A DNA stretch of 18,419 nucleotides from Escherichia coli. GTDB lineage: Bacteria; Pseudomonadota; Gammaproteobacteria; Enterobacterales; Enterobacteriaceae. Below the pieces are notes generated by a model. It saw only the letters and a list, made by a program, of their open reading frames with translations, had not been told where the DNA came from and searched no databases. The position numbers were made by a program, and so were the translations under genes. Each line of letters opens with the position of its first letter. Position 1 is the first letter of the stretch. The DNA lies in NCBI RefSeq assembly GCF_003334255.1, contig NZ_QOWU01000074.1. One strand, 5' to 3'. Below are positions 5,146 through 5,309 of this stretch, piece after piece.

Positions 5146-5160
5146 AGGTCTGGTATTACT

Positions 5161-5259
5161 GCCGGATGCGGCGTGAACGCCTTATCCGGCCTACAAAACC
5201 TTGCTAATTCAATATATTGCAGGGACTATGTAGGCCTGATAAGCATAGCGCATCAGGCA
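5161..5259. repeat. BIME: two REP (repetitive extragenic palindromic) units in opposite orientation
   Basis: GCCGGATGCGGCGTGAACGCCTTATCCGGCCTAC at 5161-5194 and GTAGGCCTGATAAGCATAGCGCATCAGGC at 5230-5259, both matching the E. coli REP consensus, in the convergent cmoB/torZ intergenic region. Confidence 0.7.
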
Positions 5260-5280
5260 GCTTTACGTTTGCATAACCTC

Positions 5281-5300
5281 AGCGCCCGTTTCCGGGCGCT
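5281..5300. terminator. GC-rich hairpin between convergent cmoB and torZ (possible terminator)
   Basis: AGCGCCCG-TTTC-CGGGCGCT: 8-bp perfect stem with a 4-nt loop, 10 nt from the torZ stop; no strong U-tract on either side. Confidence 0.35.
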
Positions 5301-5309
5301 ATTCACTTC

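What the first reader, a model, noticed from the sequence alone, without database searches (positions are those of the whole stretch)
5146..5309. REP/BIME cluster and hairpin in the cmoB-torZ convergent spacer; second REP pair after cheZ
Two REP units in opposite orientation (5161-5194, 5230-5259) plus a GC hairpin (5281-5300) fill the spacer, and a related REP pair lies at 17054-17123. These are ordinary E. coli BIMEs (mRNA stabilisation, gyrase/IHF binding) and can be targets of REP-associated transposases. Noted for completeness.
Basis: partly seen in the sequence, partly recalled or inferred. Interest (0 to 1): 0.15.

Follow-up and report, generated by a model that had tools for sequence, protein, structure and literature searches.

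The report
Ordinary E. coli REP/BIME repeats
The cmoB-torZ spacer holds a textbook E. coli BIME-1 repeat next to an older terminator hairpin, and a decayed REP pair follows cheZ; both are ordinary known repeats, though the locus varies between strains and attracts REP-specific insertion sequences.

Summary
A strict REP half-site search finds exactly four REPs in the 18.4-kb window: 5161-5190(+), 5234-5258(-), 17056-17085(+) and 17087-17118(-). Shuffles give 0.02.

The first cluster is a canonical BIME-1 (RIP/RIB):
- a Y REP (34/35 to reference);
- a 35-nt L linker with an IHF-like site, which matches Rfam ES036 at 45.5 bits;
- an inverted Z1 REP (28/30).

The 8-bp GC hairpin at 5281-5300 is not part of the repeat. 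It is the resident terminator of the convergent cmoB and torZ genes. It survives alone in strains that lack the BIME and scores there as a terminator on both strands.

Among 5,426 complete E. coli genomes:
- about 72% carry the full element;
- about 20% have an empty or partly deleted site;
- 6% carry IS621 exactly at the Z1 ATCAGGCCTAC target;
- 6 carry IS1397 in the Y loop.

The cheZ-flhB pair is a degenerate, single-copy Y-like/Z2-like doublet without the GTAG foot.

One side lead: at 8 of 22 BIME-1 sites the element lies between two direct copies of a host terminator hairpin.

The parts
5146..5160 (+). Diverged Y-side flank of the BIME-1 unit, starting directly after the cmoB stop codon.
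   Evidence: It aligns weakly with the conserved Y-side flank (..ACAAAGTGCGCTTTGTTCA|TGCCGG) of other BIME-1 copies. The distal part of that flank is missing here.
5161..5194 (+). Y-type REP (palindromic unit) with a CTAC foot. It is the target of IS1397 in 6 genomes.
   Evidence: It matches the published Y reference at 34/35 over 5160-5194 and matches the strict pattern with no mismatch. The Rfam naRNA4 (REP325) model gives a partial hit at 39.7 bits. Folding energy is -21.3 kcal/mol. IS1397 lies in its loop in strain MP1.
5195..5229 (+). L linker of the BIME-1, with an IHF-like site at 5207-5219 (ATTCAATATATTG).
   Evidence: Rfam RF02751 ES036 matches 5195-5237 at 45.5 bits, above the gathering score of 37.6. 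The site matches WATCAANNNNTTR at 12/13. The core AATTCAATA.ATTG is invariant in four other BIME-1 copies.
5230..5259 (-). Z1-type REP with its GTAG foot facing the linker. It contains the natural IS621 target ATCAGGCCTAC at 5230-5240(-).
   Evidence: It matches the published Z1 reference at 28/30 and the strict pattern with no mismatch. IS621 is inserted at GTAG|GCC in 325 genomes.
5260..5280 (+). Z1-side flank of the BIME-1 unit (GCTTTACGTTTGCATAACCTC), abutting the hairpin.
   Evidence: It is similar to the conserved GYTTTGCGTTTGTCATCAGTCTC flank of other BIME-1 copies. Megablast hits to other BIME-1 loci extend to about 5274.
5281..5300 (.). Resident GC hairpin (AGCGCCCG-TTTC-CGGGCGCT). 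It is the ancestral bidirectional intrinsic terminator of cmoB and torZ; its U-tracts are eroded or displaced in this allele.
   Evidence: Perfect 8-bp stem. Folding energy is -16 and -18 kcal/mol on the two strands. It is invariant in filled, partly deleted and empty alleles and in E. whittamii and Escherichia sp. E1V33. It is called a terminator on both strands in the empty allele of strain S14 but not in the window.
17056..17085 (+). Degenerate Y-like REP lacking the CTAC foot, in the cheZ-flhB spacer.
   Evidence: It matches the strict pattern with 2 mismatches and is closest to the Y reference, with 29 matching bases of 35 in a gapped alignment. The naRNA4 model gives 32.2 bits. Its 3' arm is deleted in an ST131 genome.
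17087..17118 (-). Degenerate Z2-like REP lacking the foot. It is the first strong stem-loop after the cheZ stop on the cheZ transcript.
   Evidence: It matches the strict pattern with 2 mismatches and the Z2 half of the naRNA4 model at 22.5 bits. Its - strand RNA folds at -25.2 kcal/mol, z = -5.9.

Best explanation
The cmoB-torZ spacer carries one copy of the dispersed E. coli repeat BIME-1 (also called RIP or RIB). It consists of a Y REP, the conserved L linker with an IHF-type site, and an inverted Z1 REP.

The BIME-1 was inserted between the cmoB stop codon and a pre-existing GC hairpin. That hairpin is the shared, originally bidirectional intrinsic terminator of the two convergent genes.

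In this allele the hairpin has lost good U-tracts. Inferred consequence: transcripts from either side probably run into the REP stem-loops. By analogy with studied REPs, those stem-loops act as 3'-exonuclease blocks and partial, partly Rho-dependent terminators, and the linker offers an IHF site in the DNA.

Shown here: the element is dispensable and polymorphic, and it serves as a landing pad for the REP-specific elements IS621 and IS1397.

The pair after cheZ is an old, decayed Y-like/Z2-like doublet that has lost the GTAG foot needed by the REP transposase. Inferred: on the cheZ transcript it supplies two stem-loops at the 3' end of the tar-cheZ operon, upstream of the flhB promoter region.
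For: Identity:
- Strict REP pattern: 4 hits against 0.02 expected.
- 34/35 to the published Y reference and 28/30 to the Z1 reference.
- Rfam ES036 hit on the linker above the gathering score. The same model hits the linker of BIME-1 copies at unrelated loci.
- The segment recurs at a median of about 39 places per genome.
- Alignment with the fepA-entD and ccmH-narP copies.

The BIME-1 definition (Y + Z1 + L with an IHF site, single copy, about 140 bp, present or absent among isolates) comes from the literature.

Insertion next to an older terminator:
- Empty alleles keep only the hairpin.
- The hairpin scores there as a terminator on both strands.
- E. whittamii has an independent BIME-1 in the opposite orientation at the same hairpin.

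Polymorphism and IS targeting.

Second pair.

The general 3'-UTR role of REPs between convergent and tandem genes is described in the preprint read.
Against: - No locus-specific functional data could be retrieved. IHF occupancy, transcript 3' ends and mRNA half-lives at these two spacers were not available.
- About 20% of genomes do without the BIME-1, so any function is dispensable.
- Genome-wide, terminal REPs show no half-life effect.
- As RNA, the whole BIME-1 is predicted to fold as one long hairpin rather than two REP stem-loops.
- The left-hand hairpin copy seen at other BIME-1 sites is absent here, so the exact insertion history of this copy is inferred.
Confidence: 0.9

Rival explanations
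1. The BIME-1 and the decayed pair are selfish or neutral remnants of mobile DNA with no selected role at these loci. Only the hairpin matters for expression.
For: - Presence/absence polymorphism, with about 20% empty or partly deleted alleles.
- A 48-bp internal deletion is tolerated.
- IS insertions are tolerated in 6% of genomes.
- The second pair is partly deleted in ST131 and replaced by a 2.4-kb insert in one strain.
- No global half-life effect of terminal REPs.
Against: - The filled allele is the majority and is also shared with Escherichia sp. E1V33.
- In this allele the hairpin lacks U-tracts, so the REP stem-loops are the next available 3' structures.
- REPs between convergent genes correlate with higher expression of both genes.

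This reading overlaps the best explanation rather than excluding it: the identity is the same and only selection differs.
Confidence: 0.35
2. Positions 5195-5237 encode a discrete small RNA gene (ES036/CssrF), and the flanking REPs are its processing or termination signals.
For: The Rfam RF02751 hit is above the gathering score (45.5 against 37.6 bits). CssrF was seen as a band of about 290 nt on a Northern blot in Shigella, at a different locus, dacB-yhbZ.
Against: - The same 43-nt model hits the linker of BIME-1 copies at unrelated loci and in either orientation (fepA-entD, E. whittamii). It therefore models the repeat, not a locus.
- No promoter-like site was found in the spacer.
- The model's predicted stem contains non-standard pairs in this copy.
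Confidence: 0.07
3. The cheZ-flhB palindromes are not REP-derived. They are locus-specific regulatory or terminator hairpins that resemble REPs by chance.
For: The pair is single-copy by megablast, lacks the GTAG/CTAC foot, and gives only sub-threshold Rfam scores.
Against: - Both units pass the strict two-half-site REP pattern, with 0.02 expected per window.
- They show the characteristic GATG.G/..TATC asymmetry.
- They lie in inverse orientation, as in BIMEs.
- The CFT073 allele keeps a more canonical Y tail, GCCTTATCCAACCT.
Confidence: 0.08

Closest known systems
BIME-1 / RIP / RIB elements of E. coli (Gilson, Bachellier, Hofnung; Boccard and Prentki; Oppenheim)
   Same: One Y and one Z1 REP in inverse orientation, tails facing a conserved linker of about 35 nt with an IHF consensus. 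[quoted passage not shown]
   Different: Nothing essential differs. This copy has a diverged, truncated Y-side flank and lacks the left-hand duplicate of the neighbouring hairpin seen at several other BIME-1 sites.
BIME-2 / REP325 (naRNA4) type clusters
   Same: The cheZ-flhB pair combines a Y-like and a Z2-like unit in inverse orientation. Both give partial hits to the naRNA4 model.
   Different: It is not tandemly repeated, has no S/l/r linkers, lost the GTAG/CTAC feet, and has only 1 nt between the cores. There is no evidence of gyrase binding. It is best called an atypical, decayed doublet.
REP-targeting insertion sequences IS621 (IS110 family, bridge-RNA recombinase) and IS1397 (IS3 family)
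   Same: The Z1 REP carries the exact natural IS621 target ATCAGGCCTAC. Natural IS621 copies sit there with the CT core on both sides. IS1397 sits in the Y REP loop, as the literature describes for palindromic units.
   Different: The window itself carries neither IS; it is the unoccupied target.
Bidirectional intrinsic terminators between convergent genes
   Same: In empty alleles the GC hairpin is flanked by an A-tract and a T-tract and scores as a terminator on both strands.
   Different: In the window allele the T-tract on the + strand is eroded (ATTCACTTCTT). On the - strand it has been displaced by the BIME, so the consensus scan no longer calls a terminator.
REPINs (REP doublets mobilised by RAYT) and MITEs
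   Same: BIME-1 is a REP doublet with inverted-repeat-like outer flanks. At many sites it lies between direct repeats.
   Different: The flanking repeat is a whole host hairpin of variable length (12-25 nt), not a short fixed-length target duplication. No transposition was demonstrated here.

Membership tests
REP / palindromic unit | Imperfect palindrome of 30-40 nt matching GCC(G/T)GATGCG...CTTATC(C/A)GGC | tested here: met
   Four hits against 0.02 expected. The first pair matches the Y reference at 34/35 and the Z1 reference at 28/30; the second pair matches with 2 mismatches per unit.
REP / palindromic unit | Conserved GTAG/CTAC tetranucleotide at the foot, required by TnpA-REP | tested here: met
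   Present at 5191-5194 (CTAC) and 5230-5233 (GTAG). It is not met for the second pair, 17056-17118, whose feet read CGCC and GGTC.
REP / palindromic unit | Extragenic and highly repeated in the genome | tested here: met
   Both clusters are intergenic. The first cluster recurs at a median of about 39 places per genome. The second is too diverged to recur by megablast, with a median of 1 place per genome.
BIME-1 / RIP | One Y plus one Z1 REP in inverse orientation, as a single (not tandem) copy | tested here: met
   Definition.
BIME-1 / RIP | Conserved long L linker carrying an IHF consensus | tested here: met
   Rfam ES036 gives 45.5 bits on 5195-5237. ATTCAATATATTG matches the IHF consensus at 12/13. 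The linker is conserved in 5 copies.
BIME-1 / RIP | IHF actually binds the linker | not testable with these tools
   The IHF ChIP-seq paper has no supplementary tables held as text and its main text does not mention the locus.
BIME-1 / RIP | Whole-element presence/absence polymorphism among isolates | tested here: met
   3,884 genomes carry the full element and about 1,098 have empty or partly deleted sites, out of 5,426.
BIME-2 | Tandem Y/Z2 units with S and s/l/r linkers; gyrase target | tested here: not met
   The first cluster has Z1, not Z2. The second pair is a single doublet with no linker. Gyrase association is reported for BIME-2 only.
Intrinsic (Rho-independent) terminator | GC-rich stem-loop followed by a U-tract | tested here: inconclusive
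   The stem is met. The U-tract is not met in the window but is met on both strands in the empty allele.
Rfam RF02751 ES036 (CssrF) sRNA | Score above the family gathering threshold | tested here: met
   45.5 against 37.6 bits. The family also hits BIME-1 linkers at unrelated loci, so a match does not show a discrete sRNA gene.
IS621 target site | ATCAGGCCTAC with a CT core | tested here: met
   Exact match at 5230-5240(-). Target sequence. The site is occupied in 325 genomes.

The most novel reading that the evidence does not exclude
BIME-1 may behave like a miniature transposable element that targets intrinsic-terminator hairpins. It would insert immediately 3' of the stem in a fixed orientation (Y side towards the A-tract and first hairpin, Z1 side towards the second hairpin and T-tract) and duplicate the whole hairpin. 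That would be a structure-defined 'target duplication' of 12-25 nt.

The GC hairpin at 5281-5300 would then be the right-hand target copy of such an event, with the left copy since deleted.

In the literature I could open I found no description of this signature, and one review states that REPs lack MITE signatures. Older papers that I could not open may already describe it.
Probability: 0.3. Interest if true: 0.45.

Novelty: already known. Interest (0 to 1): 0.15.

Why it matters
As filed, the finding matters little. REP/BIME elements are among the best-known E. coli repeats, and this spacer differs from K-12 MG1655 by one base.

Three points have modest value:
1. The locus is a clean natural example of BIME-1 gain and loss and of REP-specific IS targeting. 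IS621, the founding bridge-RNA recombinase, occupies this exact site in 6% of complete genomes.
2. The Rfam family ES036 appears to model the BIME-1 linker rather than a locus-specific sRNA, which is a caution for annotation.
3. The hairpin-duplication signature around BIME-1 copies, if undescribed, would give a concrete handle on how these elements insert. A recent preprint calls that mechanism not fully established.

Tried and rejected
- My first REP head pattern, recalled from memory (GCCKGATGNCGRCG), had one position too many and gave only chance-level hits. I replaced it with half-site patterns and with published reference REPs.
- The RefSeq MG1655 table returned by the tool lists no repeat features for this stretch, so I could not cite the curated REP name.
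- These papers are not held, so motif names A/B and any earlier description of flanking repeats could not be checked: Boccard and Prentki 1993, Choi 2003, Gilson 1991, Bachellier 1997 and Raghavan 2011.
- No supplementary tables were held for the REP RNA-seq paper or the IHF ChIP-seq paper, and no paper discusses the cmoB-torZ spacer.
- The consensus scan found no promoter in either spacer and no terminator in the window's versions.
- My open-frame test for flanking gene orientation at the 22 BIME-1 sites was too permissive with 300-nt flanks. I did not use it; orientation was judged from the A- and T-tracts instead.
- Chance palindromes and a locus-specific sRNA gene were considered and judged unlikely.

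Full report
**Locus.** The window is E. coli chromosome. It runs from a prophage end (excisionase, integrase) in yecE through yecN, cmoA and cmoB, then the convergent torZ-torY, cutC/MicL, yecM, argS, yecT, flhEAB and cheZY. The best database match is 99.8% identical over 99% of the window. The cmoB-torZ spacer (5146-5309, 164 nt) differs from K-12 MG1655 at one base.

**Observation.**
- Inverted-repeat search finds the Y palindrome, the tail-to-tail and head-to-head complementarity between the two REPs, and a perfect 8-bp stem at 5281-5288 / 5293-5300.
- A strict two-half-site REP pattern finds exactly four units in the window: 5161-5190(+), 5234-5258(-), 17056-17085(+) and 17087-17118(-). 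Shuffles give 0.02.
- Against the reference REP sequences printed in the IS621 bridge-RNA paper, the first unit is Y (34/35) and the second is Z1 (28/30). The third is closest to Y and the fourth to Z2, both with many changes.
- Predicted stem-loops are far more stable than shuffles.

**What the first cluster is.**
- Between the two REP tails lie 35 nt that match Rfam RF02751 (ES036/CssrF) above its gathering score: 45.5 against 37.6 bits.
- These 35 nt contain ATTCAATATATTG, a 12/13 match to the IHF consensus WATCAANNNNTTR (the consensus is from my own knowledge).
- A Y REP, a long conserved linker with an IHF site, an inverted Z1 REP, and single-copy status together make up the published definition of BIME-1.
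- The same unit, including about 20 nt of flank on either side of the REPs, occurs between fepA-entD and ccmH-narP.
- The segment recurs at a median of about 39 places per E. coli genome.
- The ES036 model also hits the linkers of BIME-1 copies at unrelated loci, and hits the opposite strand in E. whittamii. I therefore read the Rfam match as recognition of the repeat's linker, not as evidence of a discrete sRNA gene here. CssrF was originally a Northern band at dacB-yhbZ in Shigella.

**The hairpin is older than the BIME.**
- Strains such as S14, GMM076 and E69 have a 34-35-nt spacer that consists of the cmoB stop, five bases, the same hairpin and the torZ stop.
- In S14 the hairpin is flanked by AAAAATTT and TTTTTAC, and the consensus scan calls it a terminator on both strands.
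- In the window the same scan calls nothing. The + strand tail is ATTCACTTCTT, and the - strand tail has been displaced by the BIME.
- Escherichia sp. E1V33 has the same filled arrangement as the window.
- E. whittamii has a BIME-1 in the opposite orientation, lying between two copies of the hairpin.
- The E. whittamii left junction (GCCGTAAAAATTTAGCGCCCG) is identical to the E. coli empty allele. I infer that the empty state is ancestral and that the spacer was colonised at least twice.

**Population variation.** Counts are among 5,426 complete genomes.

| Allele | Genomes |
|---|---|
| At least 80% of the 204-nt core query (full element) | 3,884 |
| At least 80% of the 701-nt query (adds about 1,098 empty or partly deleted alleles) | 4,982 |
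| IS621 at the exact junction | 325 |
| IS1397 at the exact junction | 6 |

- One partial allele lacks 48 nt, covering the 3' half of Y plus most of L.
- In strain MP1, IS1397 sits in the loop of the Y REP...GGCGTGAAC|IS|GAACGCC....
- In strain S1-CAM-02-A, IS621 sits at GTAG|GCCTGAT of the Z1 REP, with AG (CT on the other strand) at both junctions. This is the published natural target ATCAGGCCTAC with its CT core.
- Whether the 325 IS621 copies are one inherited event was not tested.

**Second pair.**
- The cheZ stop is at 17127 and the flhB start at 16925. The two units abut tail to tail with one base between the cores and have lost the CTAC/GTAG feet.
- They give only sub-threshold hits to the REP325/naRNA4 model: 32.2, 27.5 and 22.5 bits against a gathering score of 59.5.
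- They are single-copy by megablast but are present in 5,276 of 5,426 genomes.
- An ST131 genome lacks 13 nt (the 3' arm of the first unit). CFT073 has a diverged version that keeps more of a Y tail.
- In one strain the pair is replaced by a 2.4-kb insert carrying a dGTPase gene and a hypothetical gene.
- On the cheZ transcript the Z2-like unit is in its canonical orientation and forms a stem of -25.2 kcal/mol, starting five bases after the stop codon.

**How it most likely works.**
- Shown: the identity, anatomy, polymorphism and IS targeting described above.
- Inferred from the literature on other REPs:
  - Transcribed REP stem-loops act as context-dependent 3' stabilisers and partial, partly Rho-dependent terminators.
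  - About 60% of E. coli REPs lie between convergent genes and about 40% between tandem genes, which are the two contexts seen here.
  - The BIME-1 linker binds IHF.
- Gyrase cleavage is reported for BIME-2, chiefly at y-type REPs within BIME-2.
- The GTAG foot and the stem mismatch are required by TnpA-REP. The first pair is thus a potential substrate and the second pair is not.
- No locus-specific IHF, 3'-end or half-life data could be retrieved.

**Side lead, outside the finding.**
- Two BIME-1 copies fetched for comparison were flanked by direct repeats of a local GC hairpin. I therefore collected canonical BIME-1 instances from metagenome contigs. This gave 115 instances with at least 300-nt flanks, falling into 22 distinct sites.
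- Seven sites have flanking direct repeats scoring 12-18. In 462 mismatched left/right controls the mean score is 7.3, the 99th percentile 10 and the maximum 11. An eighth site has a hairpin pair with conserved stems. All eight pairs are spaced 167-179 nt apart.
- At six of the eight sites the repeat is itself a stable GC stem-loop. At the other two (L042, L053) the scored repeat lies within or beside one.
- The left copy is followed directly by the Y-side flank CAGATTGTTGACAAAGTGCGC. The right copy is preceded by GCGTTTGTCATCAGTCTC and is usually followed by a T-tract.
- At ccmH-narP the empty allele is exactly 176 bp shorter and has one hairpin plus the T-tract. It is the commoner allele: 1,505 genomes are filled.
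- In the window, the right junction is of this canonical type (...ACGTTTGCATAACCTC|AGCGCCCG). The left hairpin copy and the distal Y-side flank are missing.
- I found no description of this signature in the literature I could open.

**Verdict.** The finding is real, correctly interpreted in outline, and ordinary. It is a known kind of element at a locus that is essentially the K-12 sequence.

Noticed in passing
L008 352-376 / 528-552; L020 3310-3332 / 3481-3503; L042, L046, L047, L053, L062, L066, L072 (metagenome contigs): At 8 of 22 distinct canonical BIME-1 sites, and also in E. whittamii cmoB-torZ, the roughly 150-bp element lies between two direct copies of a local terminator-like hairpin, 167-179 nt apart. 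Empty alleles have a single copy. Orientation is consistent: Y side next to the first copy, Z1 side next to the second copy and T-tract.
   Followed up: partly
window 5195-5237; L007 437-478; L020 3381-3423; L026 7868-7910: The Rfam family RF02751 (ES036/CssrF sRNA) hits the L linker of BIME-1 copies at unrelated loci and on either strand. It appears to model a dispersed repeat motif rather than one sRNA gene.
   Followed up: partly
L012 2620-5050 (strain AHM8C160RI), corresponding to window ~17020-17114: In one E. coli strain the cheZ-flhB REP pair is replaced by a 2.4-kb insert that encodes a dGTP triphosphohydrolase and a hypothetical protein. It could be an anti-phage cassette.
   Followed up: no
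window 1-2945: The left end of the window is the end of an integrated element (excisionase, then a tyrosine integrase at 880-2193) that abuts a shortened DUF72 gene (yecE) at 2220-2945. K-12 has intact yecD-yecE here. From memory, yecE is a known prophage integration site.
   Followed up: no
window 9173-9480 (-): MicL sRNA inside and downstream of cutC, matching Rfam RF02654 at 373.7 bits over the full length.
   Followed up: no
window 12549-12583: A REP-like palindrome, GCCTGATCAGGGTTAGCCGATCAGGC, followed by TTTTTTATT, lies just after the argS stop. It looks like the argS intrinsic terminator with REP-like arms, and it overlaps the 3' end of the small yecV ORF annotated in K-12.
   Followed up: no
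L004 (strain FDAARGOS_1249) versus window 5171-5218: An allele with a 48-nt internal deletion removes the 3' half of the Y REP and most of the L linker, including the IHF-like site. It shows that the BIME-1 can decay in place.
   Followed up: partly
L039 5326-7755 (strain G1/2) versus window 5310-7757: In the closest database genome torZ is annotated as a pseudogene with an internal stop. In the window the torZ frame is open over its full length.
   Followed up: no
window 5140-5148 and 5262-5269: CCGTAAAG, which includes the cmoB stop codon, and CTTTACG just beyond the Z1 REP are inverted repeats. The palindrome of the BIME-1 unit therefore extends past the REPs, and the whole unit is predicted to fold as one long hairpin in RNA (-71 to -74 kcal/mol).
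   Followed up: partly
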